Part shown: positions 1-33,909 of the stretch, piece by piece
How positions within the stretch are numbered: the first letter of the stretch is position 1
How the letters are laid out: every line of letters starts with the position of its first letter
DNA from: a virus
DNA: 64,000 nt
IMG/VR virus record: IMGVR_UViG_3300035198_000053
Coordinates: 12,430 to 76,429 of that record
Reading direction: 5' to 3' (one strand)
Position numbers and translations under genes: made by a program
The notes under the pieces: generated by a model
Seen by the model: the letters and a program-made list of their open reading frames with translations, nothing else
What the model was told of the DNA's origin: nothing
The model's database searches: none

Positions 1-1070
1 CCCAAATCATTTATCTGCTTGAGGAGGCCGTTAAATCCCGCATGCAGATGGATGTTCCTTTCGGAGCCTATTTGAGCGGAGGAGTCGATTCGAGCGCCGT
101 CGTGGCTCTCATGAGCCGTCATTCGACGAAGCCAATCAGGACCTTCTGCCTGGGCTATGAGGATGAGCTGAAGAACAAGGAGGCGGACATCTACCACGCT
201 CGGAGGGTCGCCAAAGTCTTCGGGACCGACCATCACGAGTACATCATGTCGGCGAAGGAACTAATTGAGGACATCGACAATGTGGTTCGCTCTTTCGACC
301 AGCCGTTCTCCGGGACTATCTCAACTTATTTCCTAACGAAGTTGATTTCGAAGCACGTCAAGGTAGCGCTCTCCGGGGACGGGGCGGACGAGCTGTTCGG
401 GAGCTACCTATCGCACAGACTCGCTCAGGAAATGCATGATCGCGGCCAAAATGAATCAGCATGGAGGTATGACCTAACGGTTTTCAAGGGCAGTGAGAAA
501 CAAGATTTGTTGAGCGAAGAGTTTGTAGAGAATCGAAGGCAAGAGCGGAACACGCAGACTTCCTTCACCCTATTGGAAAATTGCTTTTCGAGTCTTTCGG
601 GACAAGACCCTCTTAACCGCATTTTAGAAATGGAGTGGAACACCCAGCTCCCCGACCAGGTGCTCGCGTTTGTGGACTTCCTTTCGATGACGCACTCAGT
701 CGAGATCCGATCCCCGTTCCTTGACTATCGGCTCGTGGAGTTCGTGGCCTCGCTTCCGGGGTTGATGAAGATCAAGAACGGAAGGACCAAGCACATCCTG
801 AAGGAGGCGGTCAAGGGTCTGCTCCCGGAGGGGATCGTGGACAGGCTGAAGGAGGGGTTCGTCCTGCCCATCTATGATTGGCTGCAAAATCAACTTGAGG
901 GCTACGTGGCAGATAGTCTCGCAGGATGGAGATTGAAGAAGCACGGATTGTTTAACGTGGACATCGTAAAGGAAATTTTGAATCGGTATTACAGCGGCGA
1001 TAGGCAGTTGGCCGCGAAGATCTGGAACCTCGTGATGTTCCAGAAGTGGTGGGAGGTGTATTTTGGATAG
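1..1070 (+). CDS. AsnB-like glutamine amidotransferase (sugar amidation type), 5' part outside window
   Basis: DVPFGAYLSGGVDSS, LSGDGADELFGSY, SVEIRSPFLD and K.GF motifs of the asparagine synthetase C-terminal domain. Confidence 0.9.
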   Translation, partial: QIIYLLEEAVKSRMQMDVPFGAYLSGGVDSSAVVALMSRHSTKPIRTFCLGYEDELKNKEADIYHARRVAKVFGTDHHEYIMSAKELIEDIDNVVRSFDQPFSGTISTYFLTKLISKHVKVALSGDGADELFGSYLSHRLAQEMHDRGQNESAWRYDLTVFKGSEKQDLLSEEFVENRRQERNTQTSFTLLENCFSSLSGQDPLNRILEMEWNTQLPDQVLAFVDFLSMTHSVEIRSPFLDYRLVEFVASLPGLMKIKNGRTKHILKEAVKGLLPEGIVDRLKEGFVLPIYDWLQNQLEGYVADSLAGWRLKKHGLFNVDIVKEILNRYYSGDRQLAAKIWNLVMFQKWWEVYFG

Positions 1071-1081
1071 GGAAAGAGTAA

Positions 1082-2155
1082 TTGACCTGCGGTGGGAGCC
1101 GGAATTTGTTTATCAATACGTGGCGTTGCGAAATGAATATATTCATTCTCAAAGACTTTTTGAAAGGAACGAATTTGAAAAATACAGCATCAGATACTTC
1201 AAAAGGATCGGTTGAGCACAAGCAGAAAGAGTACGGCATCCGCCCCGAGGCGAAAGACTTCCCCATGATGTGCGTTCTATCCATGACCTACGTTTGCAAC
1301 GCGCAATGTCCGAACTGCCCCTATACGAATTCGGAGATCCGGGAGGGCTTCAAGGACCAGCCCATGATGAGCGAGGGAACGTTCAAGATCATCGCCGACC
1401 AGTGCGGGGAGCACGGGGCCTGGATTCGGATCTCCGGGGGCGGGGAGCCGATGCTCCATCCCAAGGCCGTGGAGCTGATCGAGTACGCGAAGTTCAGGGG
1501 CGCGAAGGTGGGACTCATCACGAACGGGTCAAAATTCAATGCCGTCAATGCGCTGAGGCTGCTTAACGCGCAGACCGATATGATCGAATTCAGCGTGGAC
1601 GCGGCGGACAGCGAGACATACGCGAAGGTCAGGAATGGACTCGACTGGAAACTCCTCCTGTCCAATGCGATGCAGATGGTGAGCCTCAGGAATAGCCTTC
1701 ATAGCTCGACTCGAATCATCGCCAGCGGGGTGAATCAGGTCGGGGTGGATATTAAAGCCGTCGGCAAATTCTGGCGCCACATCGTAGACGAGTTCCAAGA
1801 GAGGAAGTTTTTGACCTGGGGGATCAATGATGAATCGAAGTCGGCGGACCCCACGCCATACCTTCCTCCGGAGGAGCGTATTCCCTGTCCCTTCATCTTT
1901 GAGCGGCTGAACATCGACACGCGGGGCCGGGTCATGGTGTGCGGATTCGACATCGCGGGGAAGACGGACCTGGGGAACATCCACAAGAAGTCGATAGCAG
2001 ACATCTGGCTCGGAAAGTCGTTTCAGTTCTACCGGGAGAGGCACTTAGCGGGGCGCGGGCATGAAATTCCCTTGTGCGGAAGCTGCCCCGATTGGCAGTA
2101 TCGATCGTGGCAGCACAATTACTGGAAGCTGGTGAAAAATGCCAGAAAAGAATGA
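1082..2155 (+). CDS. Radical SAM / SPASM-type enzyme (start uncertain)
   Basis: CNAQCPNC (CX3CX2C), GGGEPMLHP, ITNGS, C-terminal CPF..C..D..LGN..C..C. Confidence 0.9.
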   Translation: MTCGGSRNLFINTWRCEMNIFILKDFLKGTNLKNTASDTSKGSVEHKQKEYGIRPEAKDFPMMCVLSMTYVCNAQCPNCPYTNSEIREGFKDQPMMSEGTFKIIADQCGEHGAWIRISGGGEPMLHPKAVELIEYAKFRGAKVGLITNGSKFNAVNALRLLNAQTDMIEFSVDAADSETYAKVRNGLDWKLLLSNAMQMVSLRNSLHSSTRIIASGVNQVGVDIKAVGKFWRHIVDEFQERKFLTWGINDESKSADPTPYLPPEERIPCPFIFERLNIDTRGRVMVCGFDIAGKTDLGNIHKKSIADIWLGKSFQFYRERHLAGRGHEIPLCGSCPDWQYRSWQHNYWKLVKNARKE

Positions 2156-2342
2156 AACTCCCATTATTTACGACAAGATCTGGTATTGGAAAAAGAGATT
2201 TCCTGGCCGCAAGGGGCAGTCTTGCCGGATAGTTTCAAGAAGCAAGGTTAGCGTTTTAGTTGAGTTTGAAGATGGGTTTAGAGCGGTAACAAGTTGGTAT
2301 GGAGTAAGAAAAAATAAGGGGGTGGTGGACCATGCTGGGTAA
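2139..2342 (+). CDS. Small hypothetical protein (AT-rich insert)
   Basis: 67-aa ORF overlapping both neighbours; lower GC. Confidence 0.6.
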   Translation: MPEKNETPIIYDKIWYWKKRFPGRKGQSCRIVSRSKVSVLVEFEDGFRAVTSWYGVRKNKGVVDHAG

Positions 2343-3044
2343 GAGAACTATTGCAATTTTGCAACCAGGTTATCTTCCCTGGCTGTGACGCTCGGGTTTT
2401 TTGAGCAGATGTGGCGCAGCGATGTCTTCGTTCTCCTCGACGACGTGCAGTACGACAAGGAGGGTTGGCGCAACCGGAACAGGATCAAGACGGCGAAGGG
2501 GCCGCAATGGCTAACGGTGCCGGTGCTGACGAAGGGCAGGGAGGGGCAGAAGATCTACGAGGTCGAGATCAACAACGGGGTAGATTGGAGGAAAAAGCAT
2601 CTGGAGGCGATAAGACAGAACTATTCTAAAGCCCCATTTTTTAAAAAGTACATCTCTCTGTTTGAGCAAGCTTATGCTCTCAAATGGGAAAGCCTGAACG
2701 ATCTGAACCGATGGTTTATATCTTCTTTGGCTTCGCTCCTGGGGATCTGGAAGGTAGAAAGCATCGGATCTTTGACCCTTGGAATAAAGGGTGACAGGAT
2801 CGAGAGGCTTATTAATTTGTGCCATTATTTCACCGCAGACGTTTTCTATGAGGGCGCAGCCGGAATAAACTACATTAACGAAAAAGTTTTCTCCGAGCGC
2901 GGCATCAAGGTCGAGTTCCAGGACTACCAGCACCCGGTATATCCGCAACTGTACGGAGAATTCGTTTCTCATCTATCCGTGATCGATCTACTTTTCAATT
3001 GCGGGCCGGAGAGCCTGAAGATATTGACGGGAGGGCAAAAGTGA
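2332..3044 (+). pseudogene. wbqC: WbqC-family protein, split after codon 18
   Basis: 2332-2388 encodes MLGKRTIAILQPGYLPWL*; 2385-3044 continues LGFFEQM..DDVQY..WRNRNRIKT..LSVIDLLFNCGPES. Confidence 0.8.
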
Positions 3045-3163
3045 AATTAAGGAATGATTATGGGAATTTTGTAAGAGTTCATCAACCATGGTCATTAGAT
3101 AATTTCGACGATATTGTAGCCCTAAATGTTATTACCAAAAGAGAGTATTTAAAGGGGGACCCG

Positions 3164-4213
3164 ATGCCTAAGAAAAGCATTTTAATTACCGGCGGATGTG
3201 GCTTTGTGGGGAGCAATTTCGTTCGTTACCTCTACCAGAAATATCCTGACTACAAGATCATCATCCTCGATGCCCTGACCTACGCGGGGGCGATCGAGAA
3301 TCTGCCCGTCGATCTCAATCGGGTGGATCAGTGCAAACGCGAAGACCGGATCTGCTTCTGGTACGGGAACGTGCGGAACGCCGAGCTTGTGGACACGCTT
3401 GTCTCGCAGGCGGACATTGTCGTGCACCTTGCGGCAGAAACTCATATAACCCGCTCCATCTATGACAACCTGATCTTCTTCGAGACCGACGTTCTGGGGA
3501 CGCAGATCGTGGCCAATGCGGTTCTGAAGCACCGGGAAACGGTGGAGCAGTTCATTCACATTTCGACCTCGGAAGTCTACGGCACCGCGCTTGAAAAGCG
3601 GATGGACGAGAAACACCCCCTCATGCCGATGAGCCCCTATGCGGCCGCCAAGTGCGGGGCGGATAGGCTGGTCTATTCATACTGGACAACCTACGAGCTG
3701 CCGATCACAATCATTCGGCCATTCAATATGTACGGTCCCAGCCAGCATCTTGAGAAAGCAATCCCCCGATTCATCACGAGTTGCATTCTCGGGGAGCCGC
3801 TGAGGATCCACGGCCGCGGAAGTGCGTCAAGAGACTACGTTCATGTGCATGACACCTGCGCGGCTATAGATATTGTGATGCACGCGGACAGGGAGGCGGT
3901 TGCGGGAGAGGTCTTCAACGTGGCCTTCGGTTTGGACCGGTCCATCCTTTCGATCGCGCAGGACGTCATCAGACTCATGGGTTCGGATTCTGCGATAACG
4001 TTCGTGGGTGATAGGCCCGGGCAGGTGTTCCGCCACACCGGGGACCGCAAGAAGATATGGGAAGTTCTGGGTTGGTGTCCGATGATAGACTGGGAGGATG
4101 GCCTCAGGGAGACGATCCTTTGGTATCGGGAGAACCGGAAATGGTGGGAGAAGCAGCTATGGAGCAGGGCAATACCGATCATCACGAAGACGGGGGAAAG
4201 GGAGCTGCACTGA
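3164..4213 (+). CDS. NDP-sugar 4,6-dehydratase (RmlB-like extended SDR)
   Basis: ILITGGCGFVGSNF, LDALTYAG, HLAAETH, STSEVYG, YAAAK; RBS AAGGGGG before ATG 3164. Confidence 0.9.
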   Translation: MPKKSILITGGCGFVGSNFVRYLYQKYPDYKIIILDALTYAGAIENLPVDLNRVDQCKREDRICFWYGNVRNAELVDTLVSQADIVVHLAAETHITRSIYDNLIFFETDVLGTQIVANAVLKHRETVEQFIHISTSEVYGTALEKRMDEKHPLMPMSPYAAAKCGADRLVYSYWTTYELPITIIRPFNMYGPSQHLEKAIPRFITSCILGEPLRIHGRGSASRDYVHVHDTCAAIDIVMHADREAVAGEVFNVAFGLDRSILSIAQDVIRLMGSDSAITFVGDRPGQVFRHTGDRKKIWEVLGWCPMIDWEDGLRETILWYRENRKWWEKQLWSRAIPIITKTGERELH

Positions 4214-4959
4214 AAAAGTTTGACCGCAGCGTCTCCCTGCTCTGCTGGGCATACAACGAGCAGGATTCGATTATGGAGTTTTTGGCCAGGGCCTCAAGGC
4301 TGTTGGACGAGTCGGTGAGGGATTACGAGATCATCCTGATCGACGACGGGAGTTGTGACAAGACGGCGCGGTATGCCTATTATTTTAACCGAGATCATCC
4401 GCACTCGAGGCTGAAATATTTCCGCAACGGGCGCAATCTGAACGTGGGTTTGTCCTGCCGAAAGGCGATCCAGAAGGCCTCGAAGGAGTTCCTGTTCTGG
4501 CAGACGGTCGACTGGGCGTATGACATCTCTAACCTCCGGGAGTACCTTGAGCTTTTGAAGACTTACGACATCGTCCAGGGGATGAGGCCAGGCGGGTTCC
4601 ACGTGGCACATATCCTGAAGCGCTCTGATTCTATTGGAAAAGCCGTAATCTCCCTCGTGAATTACTGGCTCATCCGCTTGTTTTACCGGGTGTCCCTCCA
4701 CGACTTCCAGAACGTGACCTTCTACCCGACGAAGTGGGCTCAGTCGATCGACTATGAGGCGACCACGTCCTTCGTCAATCCGGAGGGGCTGATAAAGTCC
4801 CACTGGGCCGGGAAGACGATCAAGGAGGTGCCGATAGGGTTCATGCCGAGGAGGCGGGGGAAGGCAAAGGGGACGAGACTGGGATTTGTGGTGAGGTCCA
4901 TGAGGGAAGTGTTCAAGTTCTGGGTGAAGTGGGTCGTCTTGAAGAGGAGGAAGCGATGA
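4210..4959 (+). CDS. GT2 glycosyltransferase, polyprenol-phosphate (DPM/GtrB-like) type; start approximate
   Basis: AYNEQ, IIIDDGS-like LIDDGSCD, N.N.G, IKEVPIGFMPRRRGKAK. Confidence 0.8.
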   Translation: MKKFDRSVSLLCWAYNEQDSIMEFLARASRLLDESVRDYEIILIDDGSCDKTARYAYYFNRDHPHSRLKYFRNGRNLNVGLSCRKAIQKASKEFLFWQTVDWAYDISNLREYLELLKTYDIVQGMRPGGFHVAHILKRSDSIGKAVISLVNYWLIRLFYRVSLHDFQNVTFYPTKWAQSIDYEATTSFVNPEGLIKSHWAGKTIKEVPIGFMPRRRGKAKGTRLGFVVRSMREVFKFWVKWVVLKRRKR

Positions 4960-5366: not shown

Positions 5367-6992
5367 ATGACCTATCTTGAAGCCGAGGCCCCCTTTCGAT
5401 TCATTCTCGGGGCGATCTTCATTTTCCTTCTCCCAGGTCTGATCTGGAATCAGGTGTTCAGAATCAGGGCGAACCATATTTTGGAGACGATCGCGCTGTC
5501 TCTGGCGACCAGCCTAGCGGTTGAAATCTCGCTGATCCCGATTCCTTTCCTCTTCCATGAGGGCGTTTGGCTGTGGCTGGCCCTGATTTCGGCTTTCTGC
5601 ATCGCTGGACTCGCGCTCCTGACCCTTAAAAGGCAAAGGCTGGCTCTTCCCTCATGGGATCTCAACTCGATTCTATTTCTTATCGTCCTGGCCGGCCTCT
5701 CCCTCTTGACCTACCGCTGGGGGGAGAGCATCGAAAGCATAGACGGCGAGAAGATCCTGCACATGACCTACATCCGGTACTACTTCTCGATGCCGATGGA
5801 GCTGTCTAGGCTTGCGGTGATCCCCGGGCAGCCCCCGGCTAATCTAATCCACCTATGGGAGTTCCTGATCGCGGGGTGGGCCACGGTCTGCAGAGTGGAT
5901 CCTCTATTCCTATTCAGCCGTTGCCGGTTTGTGGTCCCTTTCCTGGGGCTCTCTTCCATGTTTTTCATGGTGAAGATGATCTTCAAAGACAGGGAGAGAT
6001 CGGAGGTGGTATTCTGGTCGATCCTGGCGATGTGCCTGGGCTGGTTCGTGCTCCTACCCCCCTCGAACCTGGGCTGGATAACGCAGAACGACCCGCTGAG
6101 AGGCATCTTCTCCTTCATGGGCACGACCCACCATTCGGATTCTGGAATGGAGATCCTGATCTCTCTCGACGTAGGGTTGGTCCTGCTCTGCCTGAGGGAG
6201 CCGAGATGGAGGCACCTGGCCATTCTGGCCGGCACCCTCGTGGCAACCTTCATGTGGCACGCGAGGGAGTTCTTCCAGGTCGGGATATACTTGGGTGTCT
6301 TCTGCCTGGCACTTTTGTTGCATAAATCCGGAAAGATGCGCAACGGGCTAGTTATGGTCGCGTGCATCTTCTGTCTTGTCTCGGCGTTCTTTTACATTGC
6401 CTCTCCGGTGCGCAACCATTCGGATGAAATGGGGTTTAAGGTCGCGGCCTTAGCCTACGCGGTGCGGGGAATGTTCGATGTTCAGGAGCCGTTCCATTTC
6501 GCGAACGACGTAAGGCTGACCTACGGACTGAGCCGGGAGGAGACGGTGCCCTATGAGCAGCTTGTCCAGACCCGCCGTAACTCCTGGAACTTCTACCCCT
6601 GGCTTATCCTTTCCGTCCTGCTCGTCCCGGTCCTGTCGATCTTCGGGGACAGGGAGGACCGTATGCTCTGCACCTTCTACGTTCTGCTCTGGTTCATGTC
6701 CCTGATGTGGTTCTTCGGGCAGATGATGATGATCGTCCTAACGTACAGTGAGATCCTGTTCACCGCGCCGAGGATGCTCTATCTGTTCTCCTATGTGATC
6801 ATCGGGTCGGGGATCTGGTGCATGGCGAAGATGAAATACGGCCCCCTGCTCGTCATCGGGGCAGGTCTGATGTTCGGGGGGTGGTGGGCGCTCGGGGTGC
6901 CGGGGGCAAGGCAGTTCTCGCTGATAGCGCCGATATTGATGGCGGTGCCGTTTGCAAGGAGGATCAGATGGAAGATTATTGGGAACAACTAA
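5367..6992 (+). CDS. Polytopic membrane protein, probable GT-C fold glycosyltransferase (N-terminal part)
   Basis: About 13 hydrophobic segments; first large loop with D-G-E..H; lies beside a DPM-like GT2. Confidence 0.6.
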   Translation: MTYLEAEAPFRFILGAIFIFLLPGLIWNQVFRIRANHILETIALSLATSLAVEISLIPIPFLFHEGVWLWLALISAFCIAGLALLTLKRQRLALPSWDLNSILFLIVLAGLSLLTYRWGESIESIDGEKILHMTYIRYYFSMPMELSRLAVIPGQPPANLIHLWEFLIAGWATVCRVDPLFLFSRCRFVVPFLGLSSMFFMVKMIFKDRERSEVVFWSILAMCLGWFVLLPPSNLGWITQNDPLRGIFSFMGTTHHSDSGMEILISLDVGLVLLCLREPRWRHLAILAGTLVATFMWHAREFFQVGIYLGVFCLALLLHKSGKMRNGLVMVACIFCLVSAFFYIASPVRNHSDEMGFKVAALAYAVRGMFDVQEPFHFANDVRLTYGLSREETVPYEQLVQTRRNSWNFYPWLILSVLLVPVLSIFGDREDRMLCTFYVLLWFMSLMWFFGQMMMIVLTYSEILFTAPRMLYLFSYVIIGSGIWCMAKMKYGPLLVIGAGLMFGGWWALGVPGARQFSLIAPILMAVPFARRIRWKIIGNN

Positions 6993-7156: not shown

Positions 7157-7165
7157 AAGGTATTT

Positions 7166-7567
7166 ATGAAATCTCTTAAGCTCGCAATCTTGGTCCTTAT
7201 CTTCTTCCTCCCCTCCATCGGCAAAGAATACCTCTCCATGGCCAAGCGGATGCTGACATCCCGCCCCCCCGTGGAGTGGGTGAAGAGGAGCCCGTTCGGG
7301 ATCTCGGAGAAGTCGCTCAGGTTCTTCATGGCGTTGCCTCTTGGGCAGAAGATCTTGGTCGACCCGTTCGGAAAAGACTGCGTCTCAGTCTACGCGCCGC
7401 AGTACATGGCCGTCATCCCTGAGATCATGGGGGGAACGCTGGTCGAAATGATGCCGAGATACAGGGAGTTCAGGCAGGGGAGGCCGTGGGTGAACGAGGT
7501 GGCAGATTATGTTTTCCTTCATAACAAGGAGAAGGGGGAAGTGATTATTAAGAGGGAAACTAAATGA
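7166..7567 (+). CDS. One-TM plus soluble domain; probable separated C-terminal part of the GT-C protein
   Basis: N-terminal TM then ..LPLGQKILVDP..VYAPQY; high GC like 5367-6960. Confidence 0.5.
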   Translation: MKSLKLAILVLIFFLPSIGKEYLSMAKRMLTSRPPVEWVKRSPFGISEKSLRFFMALPLGQKILVDPFGKDCVSVYAPQYMAVIPEIMGGTLVEMMPRYREFRQGRPWVNEVADYVFLHNKEKGEVIIKRETK

Positions 7568-7889: not shown

Positions 7890-8235
7890 CGCGCTTTGCG
7901 CAATTACTGTTCACTAAACTTTAGGCCCGCGCGATAGAGCTACAAAGAAACAGGTCCCATAAGATCGGAGAGAAAGACCATGAAATAGGTTCTTTTGAGA
8001 TCTTAGCCTGGAAACGCGTGAATGGCCCCGGAGATGGGCGACAGGGAAAGTGGGATAGCAAGACTAAGCTGATGTCTCCGGGTTGATTCTGATTTTTTCC
8101 AGCCAAAGAGGCATTGAACGGAAAAAATGTCGAAGGGAGGCCTGAGACGCTAACCCTGGCCTCCGCAGCAAACGATAAGGGGGCGAGAAGCCCATGAGAT
8201 AGGCCCGGTTGGGGAAACTTGATCGGGCCTTTTTA
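7890..8235 (+). ncRNA. Candidate structured non-coding RNA
   Basis: Successive perfect stems: TAAGATC/GATCTTA, CCCGGAGA/TCTCCGGG, ATTTTTTCC/GGAAAAAAT, GGAGGCC/GGCCTCC, GGGC-GAGAA-GCCC; lies between a promoter and a terminator; no credible ORF. Confidence 0.5.
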
Positions 8236-8238
8236 TTT
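8201..8238 (+). terminator. Rho-independent terminator
   Basis: AGGCCCGGTT..GATCGGGCCT followed by TTTTATTTT. Confidence 0.75.
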
Positions 8239-8332
8239 TGGGGAGCCAGCCTGCCCGCAACTGAAGTGGCTGGGGCAATACCTGACGGGCCGGGATTTAG
8301 AGCGGCGGCGGTTGCCCTCCGGCCCGTAAATT

Positions 8333-25785: not shown

Positions 25786-25789
25786 CATT

Positions 25790-25866
25790 AATCCCCGGTC
25801 CTGACGGGGGGATTTTCGAGCCTTAAAAGAACCGCAGTTCCGATCCTCGAATATGCGGTTTTTTTG
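25790..25866 (+). terminator. Two hairpin/T-run elements before the capsid gene
   Basis: AATCCCC..GGGGATTTT and AACCGCA..TGCGGTTTTTTT. Confidence 0.5.
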
Positions 25867-25911
25867 TGCCCGGAAAACGAGGACAAACCAAAAAAACAAG
25901 GAGGAGATCTT

Positions 25912-27295: not shown

Positions 27296-28465
27296 TTGGC
27301 CGTAGATAAGGTTAAACGGCCAAATATTCACGAATGGGATGCAATGGACATTAACGATTTCGTCCTCACCGACGACAAAGCCATGGTCCTGGTCGAGTAC
27401 CTTTTGCCCGGGTATAACAACCAGAAGTCCTATGTTGGAGTGGACCGCGCGCTCAAAGGGCAGGCGATCGGGAAATGGAAACTCGTTCCAAGGCCGGACA
27501 AAAGGGACAAATACGAGACGCGCATGATGACCGCCAGCGGGGTGCCAGACGCGCTGACCCGCGACGACATGCTAGGGAAGCAGACCTACGAGACGAAGAG
27601 CCTAAAAAAAAAGCGGATAGCATGGGTGGAGGACTCATGGGTTATCGGAGGGGCGGAGATCTCGGGCCAAACCATGACTAGAATCGGTGAGGAGTGCGGC
27701 TTCGAGATAGAGCGCGTCACCGGCAAGACCGATACTATGTTAATAGGGGAGATACTATCGGGGAGCGACCTGATAGTGCTCAACAACGTATGGGGTTTCT
27801 CGCAGGAGCAGATGGCGAAGATATTGACCGCCATCGAAAGGGTGCCCTATGTCAAGTACGAGCACGACCACAGGGAGATCGAGCACAGGCGGGACATTTC
27901 GGAAAAGCTATTCAGGGGGTCGGTCCTCAACTTTTTTTTATCTCCCATTCACATGTCGAATCACATGGAGACGTTTCAAATCCAGGGTATTTGTCTTCCT
28001 CTTGCGATCGACGTTGAGATTTTTCGTCCGGTGGCAGGTGTTGAAAGAAAGATGGGCACAGCTCTAGTCTGCAATGTAAGAGGATGGAAGACCTGGAAAA
28101 CGCTAAAGGAGTTCATCGACAGCCATCCGGAGATTCATTTTGATATCCTCTCCAAGGGAGAACTCATCACCGGACCGAATGTAACCAGCATTCCGATGGT
28201 CCCATATGAGGAGATGCCGAAGCTCTATTCCGCGCACGAATGGCTTGTCCACATGCTCGACGGATGGGGTGCGGGGGAGCGCGTGGTGTTCGAGGCGGCC
28301 CTCTGCGGCTGCCGCGTGATAGCCAACGAACGCGTTGGTCATATGTCCTGGGGCAAAGATTTGACCGACGTTAAAGGATTGCGGGAATGGCTGAGGGCTG
28401 CCCCTTATCTTTTCTGGCGCGAGGTCGACCGGCTGACAAAGCAGACAGAGGCGAAGGCGGCATGA
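27296..28465 (+). CDS. GT-B (GT4-like) glycosyltransferase with an N-terminal extra module; start uncertain
   Basis: GGAEIS, YVKYEHD, IDVEIFRP, VPYEEMPKLY, GERVVFEAALCGC. Confidence 0.8.
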   Translation: MAVDKVKRPNIHEWDAMDINDFVLTDDKAMVLVEYLLPGYNNQKSYVGVDRALKGQAIGKWKLVPRPDKRDKYETRMMTASGVPDALTRDDMLGKQTYETKSLKKKRIAWVEDSWVIGGAEISGQTMTRIGEECGFEIERVTGKTDTMLIGEILSGSDLIVLNNVWGFSQEQMAKILTAIERVPYVKYEHDHREIEHRRDISEKLFRGSVLNFFLSPIHMSNHMETFQIQGICLPLAIDVEIFRPVAGVERKMGTALVCNVRGWKTWKTLKEFIDSHPEIHFDILSKGELITGPNVTSIPMVPYEEMPKLYSAHEWLVHMLDGWGAGERVVFEAALCGCRVIANERVGHMSWGKDLTDVKGLREWLRAAPYLFWREVDRLTKQTEAKAA

Positions 28466-29085
28466 TGGAATCCAGGCTCGACTACTGGGAGAACCGATAC
28501 AGGAAGCAGGGATTAAAGACTGTGGGGTGTTGCTCCTTTTCTGAATCCCAGTTTCAAGCTAAGACGGGTGCCGTCATGGATATGATCCGCCCCACGCTTG
28601 AGCCGATATTCCGGGGGAAGACAGTTTTGGATTTCGGGTGCGGATGGGGCAGACTAAGCAAGATGCTTTTTGCCTTCTGCCACTCCGTCTACGGGATAGA
28701 TATCTCCCCGTGGGCTATCAGGCAGGCCAAAAACCACTCACCCGGCTGTGACTTCCGGGACTATGACGGGGAACATATACCCTTTGGAGACGGTTGCTTT
28801 GAGGGTTGCCTATCATGGACGGTTTTGCAGCACGTCCCCCCGGAACAGATCGGGAAGACATGCGGGGAGATTTCGCGCGTCCTCGGCAAAGACGCCCATC
28901 TTGTTATTTATGAGAATGTATCGACTTGGTGCGAGGATATGACACATGTCTGGTTCAGAAGGCCGAAGGACTACATGATGCTGTTCGAACAATTCCGGGT
29001 TGAACGGGAAACCATTGTCAAGGACTTCGACGGAACCGGGGAAAACCATGTTTTGATGGTCCTCAGAAGGGGGGATGGGAAATGA
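28462..29085 (+). CDS. Class I SAM-dependent methyltransferase
   Basis: VLDFGCGWGR, GIDIS, TVLQHV. Confidence 0.9.
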   Translation: MMESRLDYWENRYRKQGLKTVGCCSFSESQFQAKTGAVMDMIRPTLEPIFRGKTVLDFGCGWGRLSKMLFAFCHSVYGIDISPWAIRQAKNHSPGCDFRDYDGEHIPFGDGCFEGCLSWTVLQHVPPEQIGKTCGEISRVLGKDAHLVIYENVSTWCEDMTHVWFRRPKDYMMLFEQFRVERETIVKDFDGTGENHVLMVLRRGDGK

Positions 29086-29834
29086 AAAGGTGGATTGCGG
29101 TAGTTTTAATGATTCTGGTTTGGACTTCATTTTCTTACGCGGTATCCCAAGACGGTTTCGTGCTCAACATAGTTCATGATGCCCAATTCTCGAAGGAGAT
29201 CTCCGGACAGGTATTCTTACCCTTCCAGACCGAGTACAAGATAAGGCTCAAGAACGCGCACAATTTGAGAGCCGTTGCCTCGGTCACCGTGGACGGCAGG
29301 CCGGTAAGCAACCTCGGAGATATCGTGATCCCCGCCAATGGAGAGTTAAGCATTGAACGATTCCTTAACGAGTCCTTGTCGGAAGGCAGGCGATTTAAGT
29401 TCGTACCATTGAGTGATCCACAGGTAGATGATCCCTATAGTAATGATAACGGCATCATCAAAGTGAAGTTCAGACTTGAGAAGAAGATTCCACCTCCTAT
29501 CTATTGGATTGTGCCAGATAATCCAAAATTTAAAATTAATGAGAATTTCCCCTCTACATTGCCTCTGGCATCTTTAACTACCGGCACCCCTAACTCTTCT
29601 TTGACTACCGGGACCGTTGATTCTTTTGCAACCGGAGAATTCAATAGCGGAATTACAAATACGAACTGCTCTGCATGCGGAGCCACTATCGGCGGGAGTA
29701 TTTCAAATCAAGCGTTCCATGAAGTGAGTCTCGACATTGACGACCAGATTACGATTTTGGAGCTGAGGATATTGGGGATAAGCCATACCAGTTTTATAAG
29801 GCGGTTTGATGGTACGGGAATAATGCAATGGTAA
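29082..29834 (+). CDS. Secreted hypothetical protein (Ig-like)
   Basis: Signal peptide MKRWIAVVLMILVWTSFSYA; EYKIRLKN..VTVDG..FKFV..NGIIKVKF. Confidence 0.65.
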   Translation: MKRWIAVVLMILVWTSFSYAVSQDGFVLNIVHDAQFSKEISGQVFLPFQTEYKIRLKNAHNLRAVASVTVDGRPVSNLGDIVIPANGELSIERFLNESLSEGRRFKFVPLSDPQVDDPYSNDNGIIKVKFRLEKKIPPPIYWIVPDNPKFKINENFPSTLPLASLTTGTPNSSLTTGTVDSFATGEFNSGITNTNCSACGATIGGSISNQAFHEVSLDIDDQITILELRILGISHTSFIRRFDGTGIMQW

Positions 29835-30505
29835 AGAATATCGTTGCCATTGGCGGGGCCGTGATTAAAACGGCCTGGAATGAAATCAGAAATCTCGCCA
29901 GTAATGGTGCTTTTGACGTGCTGATCCACAACGGGGCCTCCCTGTTCCATGACTTCCAAAGGGCCACGGAGGAGTTGCCGGGCCACTCATATTCGCTGGC
30001 CGACCTTTTGGAGGATTATCGAAAGGACGAAGCAGCCAGCCTGTTGGTGTGGGAGTTTCTAAGGGAGAACGCAAGAGCTCCAAAGGACAGTCTAACCCGG
30101 ATCTGCGAAGACCAGGGGATAAACGTTCTCTTGGCGGTCGCACTTGGGACGGACTTCTGGCATCTGTTCGACCAGGATTGGGGGCTGATAGCCCGGCGAT
30201 GTCGAAACGATTTTCTAGGCCTGATCGAACATATGGGGACCCCATTCAAGTTTTTTTGCCTGGGCTCAGCGGTGATCCATCCGGAGCTGTTCGCCAAGGC
30301 GCTTGCGGTCGCAAAATCGGAACAGTTCACGACCGTGGTGGTGGATTTCAGGGAGATGTACCGCCCGAGATCGCGGGTTGCAGTCTATGGGCAGTACCTT
30401 CTCATGGAACACAAGGAATTCCTCAACTCCTGGATCGAATCGCGCAAGAGGGAAAGGAATGAAGCGGACAAAGCAGAGACGCAAGCCCATAGACCGACGC
30501 TTTGA
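29828..30505 (+). CDS. Deoxyhypusine-synthase-like NAD-binding protein
   Basis: GGAVIKT, HNGASLFHDF, ALGTDFWH, GSAVIHPELFAKAL. Confidence 0.55.
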   Translation: MVKNIVAIGGAVIKTAWNEIRNLASNGAFDVLIHNGASLFHDFQRATEELPGHSYSLADLLEDYRKDEAASLLVWEFLRENARAPKDSLTRICEDQGINVLLAVALGTDFWHLFDQDWGLIARRCRNDFLGLIEHMGTPFKFFCLGSAVIHPELFAKALAVAKSEQFTTVVVDFREMYRPRSRVAVYGQYLLMEHKEFLNSWIESRKRERNEADKAETQAHRPTL

Positions 30506-30608
30506 CAAGCGCGCCATGGAGCAGGCGTGGCTGAAATCCTTCGAGCAGAACTACAAGAAGAAAGAGCCGTTCGTGCCGAGATTCCAGGAGGGGACGGGGG
30601 ATGGATGA
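30459..30608 (+). CDS. Small basic protein
   Basis: MKRTKQRRKP..; RBS AAGGA; bridges to the next gene. Confidence 0.4.
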   Translation: MKRTKQRRKPIDRRFDKRAMEQAWLKSFEQNYKKKEPFVPRFQEGTGDG

Positions 30609-31282
30609 ACTACCACATCGTCAAGCTGTATTTTAAGCGCGAGTCGGGCGTGACCGACGAGTGGATAGCAAAACGCATAGACTTCTTTACGCGATACACC
30701 TTGAGGAGTCTGCAAAGGCAGACCTTCACCGACTTCTCGCTGTGGATATGGTGCCAACCCGGGATGGAGCAGGCCATGAAACCGCTAGTCCGCTTTTTGC
30801 CGAAAGATGGGGTGATGACGTTCGGGCAGCATTTCACGGAAAAGGCGCCGATGCCGGTCTTCCACAGGCTCAATGAATCCGATCATGTCTATGTCACGCG
30901 CATAGACTCTGACGATCTTTACAGGGCCGATGCCATGCAGATCATCTCCGACCAGCAGCCCATTGACCGTTCAAGGATAGAGTGCGCGATGTTCAGGTGG
31001 GGGTATTTGTACGAGCTAAAGACGGAGCGCGTCGGAACGTATTTCAAACACAGCACGCCCTTTCACTGCGTCATGTGGCCGGCAGACATCTTCTGCAATA
31101 GGGAAAAGCACGACGAGGCGTTCTGCGGGGACCACGCGAGGGTGAAGGACGCCTACCCGACGAGGTTCCTGCCAGATTGGAAATTCTGCGTCCTCGTGCA
31201 CGGGGATAACTTCAGCTCGACGTTCGATTCTCTGGTACAGAAGCGGTACAGGGACGACTTCGACCTGATGGAGTTTATGTGA
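30605..31282 (+). CDS. Putative rhamnosyltransferase-like GT-A protein
   Basis: R..FF..YTL.SL..QTF.DF, TRIDSDD (DxD), VLVHGDN. Confidence 0.75.
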   Translation: MNYHIVKLYFKRESGVTDEWIAKRIDFFTRYTLRSLQRQTFTDFSLWIWCQPGMEQAMKPLVRFLPKDGVMTFGQHFTEKAPMPVFHRLNESDHVYVTRIDSDDLYRADAMQIISDQQPIDRSRIECAMFRWGYLYELKTERVGTYFKHSTPFHCVMWPADIFCNREKHDEAFCGDHARVKDAYPTRFLPDWKFCVLVHGDNFSSTFDSLVQKRYRDDFDLMEFM

Positions 31283-31839
31283 TGGACAAGCCGGTGATAT
31301 TCGATGTGGATGACTTTTGCGACATGTGGGAATGTCTGACGGACATTGAGATATTGAAGCACACATATCCCAACTTCAAAGCAACATTGTTCACGATCCC
31401 ATTCAGGACGAGCCCGGCGATGCTGCTCAGGGTCAAGAAGCTGGGATACGTCGAACTTGCCGTCCACGGATTTCTGCACAGTCCGAACCTCATGGAGATG
31501 CTCGGTCTGGAGAAGTGGCAGATCGTCGAACTCTTCAAGAAGGTGGACTTCAGGTTCTACTGCCATGGATTCCGACCTCCGGGCTGGCACATGAACCAAA
31601 CCGTTGTAGATGCCTGCAATGAGGCCGGTCTGTGGGTGGCCATGCATAGGAACGATAGGAAACTCGCCGCGAAGTGCATCCACGGGTACTATATCGCGGA
31701 GGACAAGTACCCATGCTGGCACGGGCATACGCACAATGTCTGCAACAACTGGATACGGAAGGCCATCCCCGATCTCGTCAAGAGGTGGCCGCAGGACCAG
31801 GAGTTCATGTTCGTAAGCGAGGCGGTGCAGAAGACATGA
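31279..31839 (+). CDS. Polysaccharide deacetylase-like (NodB-type) protein
   Basis: FDVDD, ELAVHGFLH, GFRPPGW, HGH. Confidence 0.8.
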   Translation: MMDKPVIFDVDDFCDMWECLTDIEILKHTYPNFKATLFTIPFRTSPAMLLRVKKLGYVELAVHGFLHSPNLMEMLGLEKWQIVELFKKVDFRFYCHGFRPPGWHMNQTVVDACNEAGLWVAMHRNDRKLAAKCIHGYYIAEDKYPCWHGHTHNVCNNWIRKAIPDLVKRWPQDQEFMFVSEAVQKT

Positions 31840-31894
31840 CGGGAGAACTCGACAAAATGATCTTTCACACTGCTATTATACGCCGCTGAAAGGC

Positions 31895-32050
31895 ATGATA
31901 AGATTTTTCGTGAACAAAGAAGATCTTTGGAAAGAGGCAACTCTCAAACTTGCAGTCCTTAATAAGCTGATTGAAGTGAAATGCGAGAAGTGCGGCGGAA
32001 AGATGTATAAGGTTGCGATACACCGCTGCTTTTCATGCGAGGCCAAATGA
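31895..32050 (+). CDS. Small zinc-ribbon protein
   Basis: ..KCEKCGGKM..RCFSCEAK*; ATGA-coupled; read manually. Confidence 0.5.
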   Translation: MIRFFVNKEDLWKEATLKLAVLNKLIEVKCEKCGGKMYKVAIHRCFSCEAK

Positions 32051-32247
32051 GCAAGGTCTATATGGGTGAACACAGTTACGGGAAGATCAAGATCCTGACT
32101 CACAACGGTGGCCGCAATGTGTATGTGGGGGAATATACGTCCATAGGTGATGGCGTTGTCGTGGCGGCAGGCGCGATCCTCACAAAGAATCCCGAACCAT
32201 ATGAGATATGGGGCGGCAATCCGGCCATACGTATAGGCGTAAGATGA
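32047..32247 (+). pseudogene. Internally deleted hexapeptide-repeat (CatB/Vat-like) O-acetyltransferase
   Basis: MGEHSYG..VGEYTSIGDG joined directly to VVVAAGAILTK..PYEIWGGNPA; only 66 aa. Confidence 0.7.
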
Positions 32248-32975
32248 TAGATGTGATCCTGACCACCTATAACCGGCTTCCCTTGCTGAAGCGGACTGTG
32301 GACTCCCTTGTCAAGAATACCACGGATTTCCGCCTGTTCATCAACGACGATTGCTCCGAGGATGACACAAGGGATTATCTGTTGAAATTGGAGGCGAGAG
32401 AAATCGCCAAAATAATCTTGAACGGGCAGAGGAAGGGCGTCGTCCCGGGCTTCAATGCGCTGTGGGAAATGGTAGAGCATAGCGACAGCGAGTATGTCTG
32501 CTATCTCCAGGACGACATGCTAGTCAACTCCTACGGATGGTTGGACGTGCTGACGGGGATCCACAAGGAGATATCCGGGACGCTGTCGGTGGGATTTGCG
32601 TCCGGGTACGACGCGAGAGAGCATCCGGAAATCACGAGGATACAGTGGGCAGGGAGGGAGGTCCTGTTCAAAAACAGCACGTCTGCCACAAATCTGATCG
32701 CGACGAAACATTTTTGGAGGTCTCTCGGGCTTCCGATCCCCCTTCTGAATCCCAATGGGAGACTGAGAGGGTTCCCGAACGACGGCCACGGGTCGAACAT
32801 AGACGTTTACCTGACCGGGTGCATCAGCATGTCGAGGGTCAGCCGGAGGGATTCCTCCCCCACGTCCTCCTACAAGCAGGGGAAGGTTGTCATGGTGATA
32901 CCGGGGCTTTTGGAGCATCTCGGGGCGGCAAGGCAGTTCTCCTCGTGGAGGCAGAACAGGGCGAGCGGGTTCTGA
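32244..32975 (+). CDS. GT2 glycosyltransferase
   Basis: VILTTYNR, INDDCSEDDT, YLQDD, EHLG. Confidence 0.85.
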   Translation: MIDVILTTYNRLPLLKRTVDSLVKNTTDFRLFINDDCSEDDTRDYLLKLEAREIAKIILNGQRKGVVPGFNALWEMVEHSDSEYVCYLQDDMLVNSYGWLDVLTGIHKEISGTLSVGFASGYDAREHPEITRIQWAGREVLFKNSTSATNLIATKHFWRSLGLPIPLLNPNGRLRGFPNDGHGSNIDVYLTGCISMSRVSRRDSSPTSSYKQGKVVMVIPGLLEHLGAARQFSSWRQNRASGF

Positions 32976-32976
32976 C

Positions 32977-33909
32977 ATGGCTAAAGGAAAAGCGATTTCT
33001 TTCTTCGGGAACGGCCTCGGAAACATGGTGATGCTCATGCCAGCGCTGGCAGCCATGAGCACTCTCACCGAAACCGGGAAAATCGACATCGTTCTCGATG
33101 ATCGATGGCGGGATATGCGCAGACCCGCCGTAGAGGAGATACTTTTCAACTGGAAGGTGATCGACAGAGTGATAAGCTGGCCCAGGGAGACCTTCGACCC
33201 TCGGGAATATGACCTCTGGTACTACAGCGGCCATGGGAACGGAAGCTGCCAGATAGTGGACCTGTTCATCCAGAAGCTCAGGTACGTCGTGGCGAAGCCG
33301 AGCTGGCGAGGATCTAAGATGCACGAGAGCAACCACTACATGGAGGTTGCCTACGCCCAGGGGTACGAAGGACCGGTCCCAGAGGTCAATTTCCCCCTAG
33401 CGGATGGTCCTATCCTCGACCTACCTCATCCCATTATCGGGCTTTGCAACGGCTGGTTCCGGGGGACTAAATATTGGGAGAAAAAGGGGTGGCCGCATTT
33501 CGAGCGTCTTAGCAGCGTCCTGAAGATGTATTTCCCCGGGGGGGCCTTGGTAGGAGTAGGACTAGAGGGCGAACTGCCCACGGGCACGCGCCTGGACGCA
33601 GACTATGGGGGTAAATTGACGATATTGCAGACGGCGAAGGTTATTTCACAGATTGACCTGCTCATAACGACGGACACCGGCAACATGCACATAGCCGACA
33701 CGCTGGACGTGCCTCTGATCGCGTTGTTCGGGCCGACGCTGACGACCAAGAACAGGCCAATAGGAAAGAGATCCCACGTTCTGACGGCGAGCATGGAGTG
33801 CGTGCCCTGCCAGGACACGCGGGCGTTTTCTTCGTGCGAGAAGGCCATCTGCATGGAGGAGATCAAGTCGGGGGACGTGATGGCCGTCGCCAGGGAGATG
33901 CTGAGATGA
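32977..33909 (+). CDS. GT9 (heptosyltransferase-like) glycosyltransferase
   Basis: GLGNMVML.PAL, K.WPHF, ITTDTGNMHIA, ALFGPT, C.PC..C..CM. Confidence 0.88.
   Translation: MAKGKAISFFGNGLGNMVMLMPALAAMSTLTETGKIDIVLDDRWRDMRRPAVEEILFNWKVIDRVISWPRETFDPREYDLWYYSGHGNGSCQIVDLFIQKLRYVVAKPSWRGSKMHESNHYMEVAYAQGYEGPVPEVNFPLADGPILDLPHPIIGLCNGWFRGTKYWEKKGWPHFERLSSVLKMYFPGGALVGVGLEGELPTGTRLDADYGGKLTILQTAKVISQIDLLITTDTGNMHIADTLDVPLIALFGPTLTTKNRPIGKRSHVLTASMECVPCQDTRAFSSCEKAICMEEIKSGDVMAVAREMLR

What the first reader, a model, noticed from the sequence alone, without database searches (positions are those of the whole stretch)
1..33909. Candidate system: a phage that exports fibre/adhesin proteins from its head operon and carries two separate glycosylation pathways
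Seen: five consecutive genes between the portal and the protease (12202-22271) all start with Sec-type signal peptides. Upstream is a cluster with NDP-sugar enzymes, a polyprenol-phosphate GT2 and a polytopic GT-C-like protein. A second cluster of soluble GTs follows the capsid gene. Established: tailed-phage heads assemble in the cytoplasm, so head-module proteins normally lack signal peptides; GT2 plus GT-C pairs (Gtr-type) glycosylate outside the inner membrane. Inference: this phage may mature accessory proteins in the periplasm (glycans, disulfides) and either load them on virions at lysis or display them on the infected cell, while glycosylating the capsid in the cytoplasm. I know of no described system combining these.
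Basis: partly seen in the sequence, partly recalled or inferred. Interest (0 to 1): 0.88.

Follow-up and report, generated by a model that had tools for sequence, protein, structure and literature searches.

The report
Phage exported-fibre cassette plus glycan modules
An uncultured sediment phage puts bacterial export signals on five fibre-, lectin- and sugar-cutting-type proteins encoded among its head genes. It also carries two sugar-building gene clusters, one ending in a membrane enzyme of an undescribed family, but nothing I could test ties the three parts into one system.

Summary
All three observations hold. The window is most of a 76.4-kb siphovirus contig from sediment.

- **Exported cassette.** Five consecutive ORFs between portal and protease (12202-22271) have classical Sec-type leaders. 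The leader is conserved in every homologue I found.
- **Cluster A.** It encodes an NDP-4-amino-6-deoxyhexose-type pathway, a GT2 and a 541-aa polytopic protein. That protein folds confidently (pLDDT 94) as a GT-C enzyme (AglB Z 14.3, STT3 13.6, ArnT 13.0). It matches no Pfam or PDB sequence.
- **Cluster B.** It is a run of soluble glycosyltransferases and a methyltransferase after the capsid gene.

The proposed single system is not supported, because the parts assort independently.
- Cluster A is a conserved cellular module (Thermodesulfobacteriota, Planctomycetota, Nitrospirota, Magnetococcales). It occurs there without the cassette, and its GT-C was found on no other IMG/VR contig.
- The lectin and beta-helix pair recurs in unrelated phages without cluster A and has foreign codon usage.
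- The 2055-aa fibre has native codon usage and 99 N-x-S/T sequons against 56 expected. It has only three relatives; two lie in another phage's head module among four leader-bearing ORFs.

Best reading: three accessory modules, with late proteins that mature outside the cytoplasm. Glycosylation of the fibre by the GT-C is possible but untested. This scan has noted exported phage-fibre cassettes before on other DNA.

The parts
1..4959 (+). Cluster A, soluble part. Contains AsnB-type amidotransferase (runs off the window start), radical-SAM/SPASM (1130-2155), WbqC-like (2385-3044), dTDP-glucose-4,6-dehydratase-like SDR (3164-4213) and GT2 (about 4200-4959). Upstream of the window, in genome coordinates: membrane protein 6116-7141, Dcm 7138-8421, membrane protein 8402-9112, DegT 9528-10667, radical-SAM/SPASM 10756-11649.
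   Evidence: Pfam and NCBIfam. The same gene set sits beside the GT-C homologue in cellular loci L029, L032, L033 and L034.
5367..6992 (+). Polytopic 541-aa glycosyltransferase of GT-C fold belonging to a new sequence family. Invariant E128 lies in the first periplasmic loop.
   Evidence: No Pfam or NCBIfam hit. 90 representative clusters, mostly about 800 aa. AF2 pLDDT 94.3. The top 20 structural matches are all GT-C, Z 14.3 down to 5.4, and the next unrelated match is Z 4.4. The family profile finds nothing in PDB by sequence.
7166..7567 (+). Split-off C-terminal piece of the GT-C: last TM helix plus the start of the periplasmic domain.
   Evidence: Aligns to residues 629-725 of the 803-aa homologue P0052, E 1e-17. 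The gene is likewise split (575 + 221 aa) in L029.
8201..8355 (+). Two strong intrinsic-terminator-like hairpins (13-bp and 9-bp stems with T runs) between cluster A and the head operon.
   Evidence: None of comparable strength occurs in genome 1-13600 or window 8400-46900.
8843..12115 (+). Portal protein with a LAGLIDADG intein-like insert and a fused Mu F-like domain.
   Evidence: Pfam.
12202..18369 (+). 2055-aa leader-bearing fibre-like protein. G/A/S/N/T-rich with a repeat period of about 28 residues, 99 N-x-S/T sequons and a conserved C-terminal domain of about 100 aa. Codon usage is native to the phage.
18416..18649 (+). 77-aa protein with an N-terminal leader or membrane anchor.
18670..19020 (+). 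116-aa leader-bearing FN3/Ig-like protein.
   Evidence: Leader heuristic. Weak match to the Ig-like end of a major tail protein, phrog_4971.
19029..19757 (+). 242-aa leader-bearing ConA/LamG-like lectin-fold protein with low GC3 (0.41).
   Evidence: ESM Atlas structure and feature neighbours, mostly viral. 25% identity to the ORF directly upstream of the beta-helix gene in L002. Codon usage.
19764..22271 (+). 835-aa leader-bearing right-handed beta-helix protein of glycoside-hydrolase/polysaccharide-lyase type, with unmodelled C-terminal domains. GC3 0.42.
   Evidence: 47 homologues, one named choice-of-anchor Q. AF2 model confident over residues 21-540. Foldseek matches GH136, GH120, PL6, PL9, RbmB and the HK620 tailspike.
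22362..23411 (+). HNH/endonuclease VII-type homing endonuclease with no leader and the same foreign composition as the two genes before it.
   Evidence: PHROG; codon usage.
23398..27258 (+). Head maturation protease-scaffold (23398-25785) and HK97-fold major capsid protein (25864-27258).
27296..33909 (+). Cluster B. Contains GT1-like, SAM methyltransferase, a 250-aa leader-bearing protein (29082-29834), a 225-aa protein, rhamnosyltransferase-like, a 186-aa protein, a hexapeptide remnant, GT2 and GT9. None of the enzymes has a TM segment.
   Evidence: Pfam, NCBIfam, hydropathy, leader heuristic.

Best explanation
The region holds three separately inherited accessory modules inside the structural genes of a novel sediment siphovirus that probably infects a diderm host. 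It is not one dedicated system.

(S) Exported cassette. Five late-operon proteins are made with cleavable Sec leaders: a giant phage-fibre-like repeat protein, a small anchor peptide, an FN3 protein, a ConA-like lectin and a beta-helix glycanase-like protein. They are translocated, cut by signal peptidase I and folded in the periplasm. They are freed when the envelope breaks at lysis, and then bind or cut envelope or matrix polysaccharide, or possibly attach to particles. The lectin and beta-helix pair, with the HNH gene, is a mobile unit shared with unrelated phages. The fibre is an old resident of this phage.

(A) Cluster A. This captured cellular pathway makes a tailored 4-amino-4,6-dideoxyhexose-type sugar and loads it on a polyprenyl phosphate (GT2). 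A new-family GT-C then transfers it to an acceptor on the periplasmic face. By analogy with ArnC/ArnT and phage Gtr systems, the acceptor is most likely an envelope glycolipid or polysaccharide, which would change the phage's own receptor landscape.

(B) Cluster B. It builds or transfers sugars in the cytoplasm, most simply onto virion proteins as in mycobacteriophages.

Shown: gene content, folds, leaders, independent assortment. Inferred: export, acceptors, timing and roles.
For: - Leaders on all five ORFs, and a leader directly before the conserved mature start in the homologues.
- No terminator or promoter signal inside 12115-22362, so the cassette rides the portal-to-capsid transcript.
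- Beta-helix model matches GH136, GH120, PL6, PL9, RbmB and a tailspike. p242 is ConA-like.
- The pair recurs next to runs of leader-bearing ORFs in viral contigs L004, L006, L007 and L013, and without leaders in L002.
- GC3 is 0.41-0.46 for p242, beta-helix and HNH, against 0.67-0.82 for core genes and 0.72 for the fibre.
- GT-C fold.
- Cluster A synteny in four cellular phyla: GT2 42-56%, DegT 54-58%, rSAM 33-61% and AsnB 42-45% identity.
- The GT-C is absent from IMG/VR and from five cassette-bearing phage contigs. No fibre homologue in five genomes that carry the module.
- The tail module has its own leaderless fibres.
- Published ideas of the same kind: soluble depolymerases released at lysis (PMC6872550); phage proteins with host-type leaders proposed to remodel the outer membrane (PMC10367356); gtr operons (PMC3688519).
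Against: - No experiment and no RNA data exist.
- Leaders were judged by a home-made rule, not SignalP.
- The fibre's first 433 residues look phage-fibre-like to a language model (all nearest clusters viral, scores 0.85-0.87). This fits a virion part as well as a free protein.
- The fibre's directional sequon excess (z 6.8), also seen in the two L042 relatives, hints at glycosylation. An independent-modules reading does not explain that.
- The GT-C's best structural matches include protein oligosaccharyltransferases.
- L042 and L020 again combine GT genes with leader-bearing proteins in structural modules.
- Independent assortment in relatives does not exclude co-option within this phage.
Confidence: 0.5

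Rival explanations
1. Integrated phage glycoprotein system. Cluster A supplies a lipid-linked sugar, and the new GT-C acts as a protein glycosyltransferase on the exported, sequon-rich fibre and perhaps its neighbours in the periplasm. The products are then loaded on virions at lysis or displayed on the infected cell, while cluster B glycosylates the capsid in the cytoplasm.
For: - 99 N-x-S/T against 55.7 +/- 6.3 expected; the reverse motif is not enriched. L042 fibre-like proteins carry 11 and 15 sequons in 321 and 346 aa.
- The GT-C's nearest folds are AglB and STT3 (Z 14.3, 13.6).
- All parts are on one strand, and no strong terminator lies between terminase and cluster A.
- L042 pairs leader-bearing fibres with a GT2.
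Against: - The GT-C has no STT3 Pfam match and no WWDxG motif (sequence). ArnT, a lipid A transferase, scores within about 1 Z of the oligosaccharyltransferases.
- The module works in cells that lack any fibre homologue.
- No other viral contig has the GT-C.
- Sequon excess is weak in P0001 (z 2.2), and repeats are not independent samples.
- Terminators separate cluster A from the head operon.
Confidence: 0.2
2. Envelope-conversion or exclusion morons. The exported proteins stay in or on the infected, or lysogenic, cell envelope and mask or destroy receptors. Together with cluster A this blocks superinfection and re-adsorption of progeny to debris.
For: - Phage leader-bearing proteins and Gtr-type operons with this role are known (PMC11436027, PMC3688519, PMC10367356).
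- Part of the cassette is a recently acquired mobile block.
Against: - No integrase or repressor was found among the genes scanned.
- The cassette has no promoter or terminator of its own and sits in the late operon.
- A 2055-aa fibre and a glycanase are unlike known small exclusion proteins.
Confidence: 0.13
3. The exported proteins are true virion appendages that mature in the periplasm and join particles only after lysis. This is the route proposed elsewhere in this scan for other phages.
For: - Language-model neighbours of the fibre are all viral, with Mtd_N and gp9/10-N clusters among them (weak).
- Position in the head operon here, and in the head module in L042.
- The lectin and beta-helix pair occurs without leaders in L002, as ordinary phage structural-type genes.
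Against: - The phage already has a complete siphovirus tail with leaderless fibres.
- No docking domain was identified.
- No precedent was found in the papers searched.
Confidence: 0.12
4. The hydrophobic N-termini are not functional leaders, or the block is an assembly chimera, so there is no export biology.
For: No experimental proof of cleavage. CheckV-type completeness is reported as 61%.
Against: - Leaders are conserved across distant homologues directly before a conserved mature start.
- Depth is uniform and single contigs span the region in two runs.
- Near-identical fragments occur in an independent study, whose variant p242 leader stays hydrophobic.
Confidence: 0.04

Closest known systems
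Bdellovibrio bacteriovorus MAT (mosaic adhesive trimer) fibres (PMC10769870)
   Same: Phage-tail-fibre-like, beta-rich fibres made with a signal peptide and working outside the cytoplasm.
   Different: MAT fibres are encoded by a bacterium for its own surface. This fibre sits in a phage head operon, has no S74 or other Pfam domain, and shows no detectable sequence relationship.
Leader-bearing proteins of Porphyromonas gingivalis phages (PMC10367356)
   Same: Phage genes of unknown function with host-type Sec/SPI leaders, proposed to use host secretion and alter the envelope.
   Different: Those are scattered small proteins in Bacteroidota prophages. Here there are five in a row in the portal-protease gap, including a 2055-aa fibre and a glycanase-like enzyme.
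Phage gtrABC O-antigen glucosylation operons (PMC3688519, PMC2629481) and ArnB/ArnC/ArnT lipid A modification (ArnT structure 5F15)
   Same: The same logic: an aminotransferase or NDP-sugar step, a GT2 on a polyprenyl phosphate, and a GT-C transfer on the periplasmic face. ArnT is a top structural match (Z 13.0).
   Different: No GtrA flippase. The GT2 lacks the C-terminal TM helices. The GT-C belongs to no described sequence family. The module also carries two radical-SAM enzymes, AsnB and WbqC, and the acceptor is unknown.
STT3/AglB/PglB oligosaccharyltransferases
   Same: Best fold matches (Z 14.3, 13.6, 9.8). The candidate substrate is rich in N-x-S/T.
   Different: No STT3 profile match, no WWDxG motif, and three extra N-terminal TM helices. 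The periplasmic domain is different and split off.
Virion glycosylation by phage glycosyltransferases next to capsid genes in mycobacteriophages (noted in PMC11256854; the primary work is known to me from memory only)
   Same: Soluble GT genes directly after the capsid gene in the late operon (cluster B).
   Different: A larger and more varied cluster (GT1-like, GT2, GT9, methyltransferase, rhamnosyltransferase-like) in a phage of a diderm host. The target is untested.
Soluble phage depolymerases released at lysis (hypothesis in PMC6872550) and beta-helix tailspikes (HK620)
   Same: Right-handed beta-helix carbohydrate-active fold, and a plausible action on neighbouring cells' polysaccharide.
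   Different: Here the enzyme has a Sec leader and a ConA-like partner, and belongs to the 'choice-of-anchor Q' type family of secreted bacterial proteins.

Membership tests
GT-C glycosyltransferase superfamily | Polytopic membrane protein with the GT-C fold | tested here: met
   AF2 pLDDT 94.3. The top 20 of 48,161 chains are all GT-C (Z 14.3-5.4, 216-347 residues aligned), and the next unrelated chain is Z 4.4.
GT-C glycosyltransferase superfamily | Conserved acidic residue in the first periplasmic loop | tested here: met
   E128 is invariant in 52 sequences. It lies 10 residues after the helix that aligns with TM1 of AglB. A catalytic role is inferred only.
GT-C glycosyltransferase superfamily | Polyprenyl-phosphate sugar donor made by a partner GT2 | tested here: inconclusive
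   GT2 adjacency is conserved in L029, L033 and L034. Only weak partial hits to ArnC and Dol-P hexose transferase. No TM helices.
STT3/PglB/AglB oligosaccharyltransferases | STT3 sequence profile and WWDxG motif in the periplasmic domain | tested here: not met
   No PF02516 hit in the protein, in 52 homologues or in the whole phage. No WWD motif in 5367-7567 or in the family consensus.
GtrABC serotype-conversion operon | GtrA-family flippase plus GtrB-type GT2 with C-terminal TM helices | tested here: not met
   PF04138 is absent from the phage. The GT2 has no TM segment.
ArnT / PMT_2 family | Sequence membership (PF13231/PF02366) | tested here: not met
   No Pfam hit at E 0.01 for the protein or its 52 homologues. 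There is fold similarity only (Z 13.0).
Sec/SPase I substrates | Positive n-region, uncharged hydrophobic core, small residues at -3/-1 | tested here: met
   All five ORFs score 4.1-5.6 on the rule-based test. Leaders are conserved in homologues. SignalP was not available.
Sec/SPase I substrates | Actual export and cleavage | not testable with these tools
   Needs reporter fusions or N-terminal proteomics.
Choice-of-anchor Q domain proteins (NF041518) | Match to the curated model | tested here: inconclusive
   20.9 bits against a cut-off of 25, at residues 517-538. Homologue P0012 bears that name in NCBI.
Phage virion glycosylation systems | GT genes adjacent to the capsid gene in the late operon | tested here: met
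Phage virion glycosylation systems | Glycans on capsid or tail proteins | not testable with these tools
   Needs virion glycoproteomics.
Bdellovibrio MAT fibres | Conserved ~130-aa post-leader domain; S74 chaperone-protease in one subfamily | tested here: not met
   No Pfam or PHROG domain in the 2055-aa protein. No PDB sequence match at E 1.

The most novel reading that the evidence does not exclude
The phage carries a complete periplasmic protein-glycosylation pathway of its own. An undescribed GT-C family would act as a protein glycosyltransferase, putting a radical-SAM-tailored amino sugar on the phage's Sec-exported, N-x-S/T-rich fibre. The fibre would then arm virions or the infected cell surface.
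Probability: 0.12. Interest if true: 0.9.

Novelty: new variant of a known kind. Interest (0 to 1): 0.62.

Why it matters
Tailed phages are thought to build all their parts in the cytoplasm. Here fibre-, lectin- and glycanase-type proteins with genuine-looking export signals sit inside a head operon, and they recur in unrelated uncultured phages. That points to a periplasmic or post-lysis route for phage accessory or appendage proteins, which I did not find described in the papers searched.

Separately, the 541-aa protein defines a GT-C family invisible to Pfam, NCBIfam and PDB sequence searches. It is embedded in a conserved gene module of about eight genes found in several bacterial phyla. 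Its sugar and its acceptor are unknown, and the phage copy offers a compact, expressible version.

If the two parts were linked, this would be the first phage-encoded periplasmic protein glycosylation system.

Tried and rejected
- **Close phage relatives.** None were found, so the cassette slot could not be compared. The capsid protein finds nothing in IMG/VR, at most 29% identity in INPHARED, and at most 33% in 401 genomes of the phylum of a Desulfobacterales MAG.
- **Metagenome scan for the fibre family.** It returned only the same contig as IMG/VR.
- **Fibre domains.** Pfam, PHROG, NCBIfam and PDB sequence searches gave nothing.
- **RNA evidence.** No RNA holder was listed, so there is no evidence on expression.
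- **A read joint 12061 to 26374 in run X3.** It has only 21 letters on one side and was dismissed.
- **A second copy of the GT-C family.** hhalign of the GT-C family against the 341-aa membrane protein upstream gave no relation.
- **Cysteine content as a marker of periplasmic folding.** Not discriminating, because core head proteins are also Cys-rich.
- **Campylobacter-type extended sequon D/E-x-N-x-S/T.** Zero copies in the fibre.
- **Known oligosaccharyltransferase or ligase families in the phage.** STT3 and Wzy_C are absent.
- **Host.** Not identified: no tRNA and no prophage match. A Desulfobacterota-like host is only a guess from best hits.
- **Literature searches.** No description of Sec leaders on tailed-phage fibre cassettes turned up.

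Full report
**What the DNA is.** The window is bases 12430-76429 of a single 76,429-bp virus contig. All genes are on one strand. The first 100 or more bases recur at the end, giving an imperfect terminal repeat of about 214 bp. A later tool reports the record as linear with a completeness estimate of 61%. The gene order is as follows.
- Small and large terminase.
- Cluster A.
- Two strong terminator-like hairpins.
- Portal with a LAGLIDADG insert and a Mu F domain.
- Five leader-bearing ORFs, then an HNH endonuclease.
- Protease-scaffold and HK97 capsid.
- Cluster B.
- A normal siphovirus tail: major tail protein, tape measure, a 558-aa tail fibre and a 1400-aa J-like central fibre.
- Lysis genes, including a lipobox protein.
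- RecT, nuclease, helicase and methylase genes.

No integrase was seen among the proteins scanned. The source runs are sediment metagenomes. Depth is flat (72x, 39x), and one contig spans 8000-27900. An independent sediment study holds fragments of the portal and fibre genes that are 99% or more identical. The block is therefore not a chimera. No close relative exists in IMG/VR, INPHARED or 401 sampled genomes.

**The five leaders.** SignalP was not available, so I used a rule-based test. It needs a net positive n-region, an 8-16 residue uncharged hydrophobic core, and small residues at -3/-1. ORFs 12202, 18416, 18670, 19029 and 19764 score 4.1-5.6, among the highest in the genome. Homologues give stronger support.
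- The mature start WY[VL]DNAATGSNNGTSW lies within the first 90 residues in 33 of the 47 relatives of the 835-aa protein, in most of them directly behind a leader.
- The only database homologue of the fibre, P0001, starts MKKYVNLILLLAFLLPVQFVSA|AQT.
- Two fibre-like proteins in L042 also have leaders.
- In the independent sample the p242 leader differs at three residues but stays hydrophobic.

Actual export remains inferred.

**What the five proteins are.**
- *Fibre (2055 aa).* It is 4% charged and G/A/S/N/T-rich, with a 28-residue period made of 11 + 17. The motif LLGxxWxxPxxIGxTxPxxxNFT occurs three times under a strict pattern. An internal duplication links residues 157-197 and 1316-1356. 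A C-terminal domain of about 100 aa is shared with P0001. It has no Pfam, PHROG, NCBIfam or PDB sequence match. Language-model neighbours of its first 433 residues are all viral, with Mtd_N and T4 gp9/10-N clusters among them, but at scores of 0.85-0.87 these are leads only.
- *Sequons in the fibre.* It has 99 N-x-S/T sequons against 55.7 +/- 6.3 in shuffles (z 6.8). The reverse motif is not enriched (z 1.4), and there is no D/E-x-N-x-S/T. Repeats are not independent samples, and P0001 shows only z 2.2.
- *116-aa protein.* It is FN3/Ig-like.
- *242-aa protein.* It has a ConA/LamG-like fold, and its nearest clusters are mostly viral.
- *835-aa protein.* It has a confidently modelled right-handed beta-helix over residues 21-540. 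The helix resembles GH136 and GH120 hydrolases, PL6 and PL9 lyases, the Vibrio matrix lyase RbmB and the HK620 tailspike. Residues 544-835 were not modelled.

**The cassette is mosaic.** The fibre has the codon usage of the phage core (GC3 0.72, distance 0.070). p242, the beta-helix and the HNH gene form a foreign block (GC3 0.41-0.46, distance about 0.155).
- Relatives of the beta-helix occur on 27 IMG/VR contigs. None shares head genes or other cassette genes with this phage.
- Several of those contigs have an ORF of about 230 aa directly upstream of the beta-helix gene. L002's is a detectable homologue of p242 (E 7e-6); those in L007 and L013 look ConA-like only from their N-terminal sequence.
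- Runs of leader-bearing ORFs lie around the pair in L004, L006 and L007. In L006 three follow the large terminase directly.
- In L002 the pair has no leader. Export is therefore optional for this module, which argues that its work is done outside the cell after lysis.

**The fibre family is rare but informative.** The only further relatives are on one 25-kb viral contig, L042, which the JGI metagenome scan also returned. Its order is large terminase with intein, portal, ClpP protease, HK97 capsid and a small ORF. Four consecutive leader-bearing ORFs follow, two of them fibre-like with 11 and 15 sequons. Then come a lysozyme and, further on, a 716-aa double GT2. Leader-bearing fibre-like proteins inside a head module are thus not unique to this phage.

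**Cluster A.** The SDR is dTDP-glucose-4,6-dehydratase-like (320 bits) and DegT is PseC/ArnB-like. With WbqC, AsnB and two radical-SAM/SPASM enzymes, this suggests a tailored 4-amino-4,6-dideoxyhexose.
- *The 541-aa protein.* It has no family match. Ninety representative clusters exist, mostly about 800 aa, and none of the 52 scanned hits Pfam. The family profile finds nothing in PDB even at E 10.
- *Fold.* The model (pLDDT 94.3) matches only GT-C enzymes at the top: AglB Z 14.3, STT3B 13.6, ArnT 13.0, ALG12, AftD, AftA, DPY19, PglB and PMTs. Unrelated proteins start at Z 4.4, and Foldseek agrees weakly.
- *Architecture.* Three extra TM helices precede the canonical TM1. Invariant E128 sits in the first periplasmic loop.
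- *Split gene.* ORF 7166-7567 is the split-off last TM plus the start of the periplasmic domain. L029 has the same split.
- *Known families excluded.* It is not an STT3-type enzyme by sequence or motif. The phage has no Wzy_C ligase and no GtrA.
- *A cellular module.* In Thermodesulfobacteriota, Planctomycetota, Nitrospirota and Magnetococcales loci, the GT-C homologue sits with the same GT2, DegT, radical-SAM, AsnB and SDR genes at 33-61% identity. No cassette gene lies nearby. Five such genomes have no fibre homologue.
- *Absent from other viral contigs.* No other IMG/VR contig encodes this GT-C family, and five cassette-bearing viral contigs lack it.

Cluster A is therefore a one-off capture of a cellular module.

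**Cluster B.** It is a set of soluble enzymes with no TM segments. They are co-transcribed with head and tail genes as far as the crude scan shows. One more leader-bearing protein (29082-29834) lies inside it. L020 shows a similar layout: an SU10-type capsid gene, then a methyltransferase, a GT1/4 and a rhamnosyl-O-methyltransferase-like gene, then a leader-bearing beta-helix.

**Verdict.** The unifying interpretation fails its own comparative test, although it cannot be excluded for this particular phage.
- *Most likely (0.5).* Three accessory modules: late proteins that leave the cytoplasm, an Arn/Gtr-like periplasmic glycosylation module with a new GT-C, and a cytoplasmic glycosylation cluster.
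- *Integrated glycoprotein system (about 0.2).* The directional sequon excess and the OST-like fold keep it alive.

Nearest published cases:
- Bdellovibrio MAT fibres (PMC10769870).
- Leader-bearing proteins of P. gingivalis phages (PMC10367356).
- gtr operons (PMC3688519).
- The soluble-depolymerase idea (PMC6872550).

**Earlier notes of this scan.** Unchecked AI notes describe exported fibre cassettes in phage late operons on other genomes, some with glycan enzymes. I did not test those loci. They show only that the pattern has been noted repeatedly.

Noticed in passing
window 8843-12115: The portal ORF is 1090 aa. The Phage_portal match breaks off at residue 357, a LAGLIDADG domain lies at 576-642, and a Mu F-like domain at 959-1083. 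This looks like an intein-containing portal fused to the head-morphogenesis protein. L019 matches residues 351-747 at 32% identity.
   Followed up: partly
genome 6116-9112 (L001), upstream of the window: A 341-aa protein with six TM segments and a 236-aa protein with one TM plus a soluble domain flank a C5 DNA methylase gene of foreign codon usage (GC3 0.49). This may be a second membrane transferase split by an insertion. It is unrelated in sequence to the GT-C family (hhalign).
   Followed up: partly
window 6818-7156: A small Cys-rich ORF (CDKCLTASCWQGLFMC...) fills the gap between the two pieces of the split GT-C gene.
   Followed up: no
window 8503-8639: In the independent sediment study a contig lacks 135 bp inside the small ORF 8357-8650 just upstream of the portal gene.
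   Followed up: no
proteins P0003-P0048 (homologues of 19764-22271): Many full-length beta-helix homologues end in a short conserved tail of the form P-x-(N/T)-(L/F)-R-(V/I)-x-x-x. It resembles the first strand of an FN3 domain. The phage's FN3 protein starts right after its leader at what looks like the second strand. Strand complementation is a speculative possibility.
   Followed up: no
window 18416-18649 and 22215-22271: The 77-aa protein and the 835-aa protein end in similar peptides (SGVHSKDARISY and SGVHIKGGGVNY). BLAST similarity is weak (E 0.76).
   Followed up: partly
L042:562-3405: The large terminase of the unrelated phage that carries fibre-like leader proteins also holds a LAGLIDADG/homing-endonuclease insert.
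   Followed up: no
window 23398-25785: The 795-aa protease-scaffold protein has 25 cysteines and the portal has 18, which is unusually Cys-rich for cytoplasmic head proteins.
   Followed up: no
genome 1406-2272 and 2437-2760 (L001): Two further ORFs with strong leader-like N-termini (288 and 107 aa) lie upstream of the terminase genes. They have no family match.
   Followed up: no
window 49346-50059: One open frame combines a weak holin-like N-terminal part with an internal start that gives a lipobox leader (MRKIVPIVLLLIMFGTMSGC). This is possibly a spanin-type lipoprotein and is the only hint that the host is diderm.
   Followed up: no
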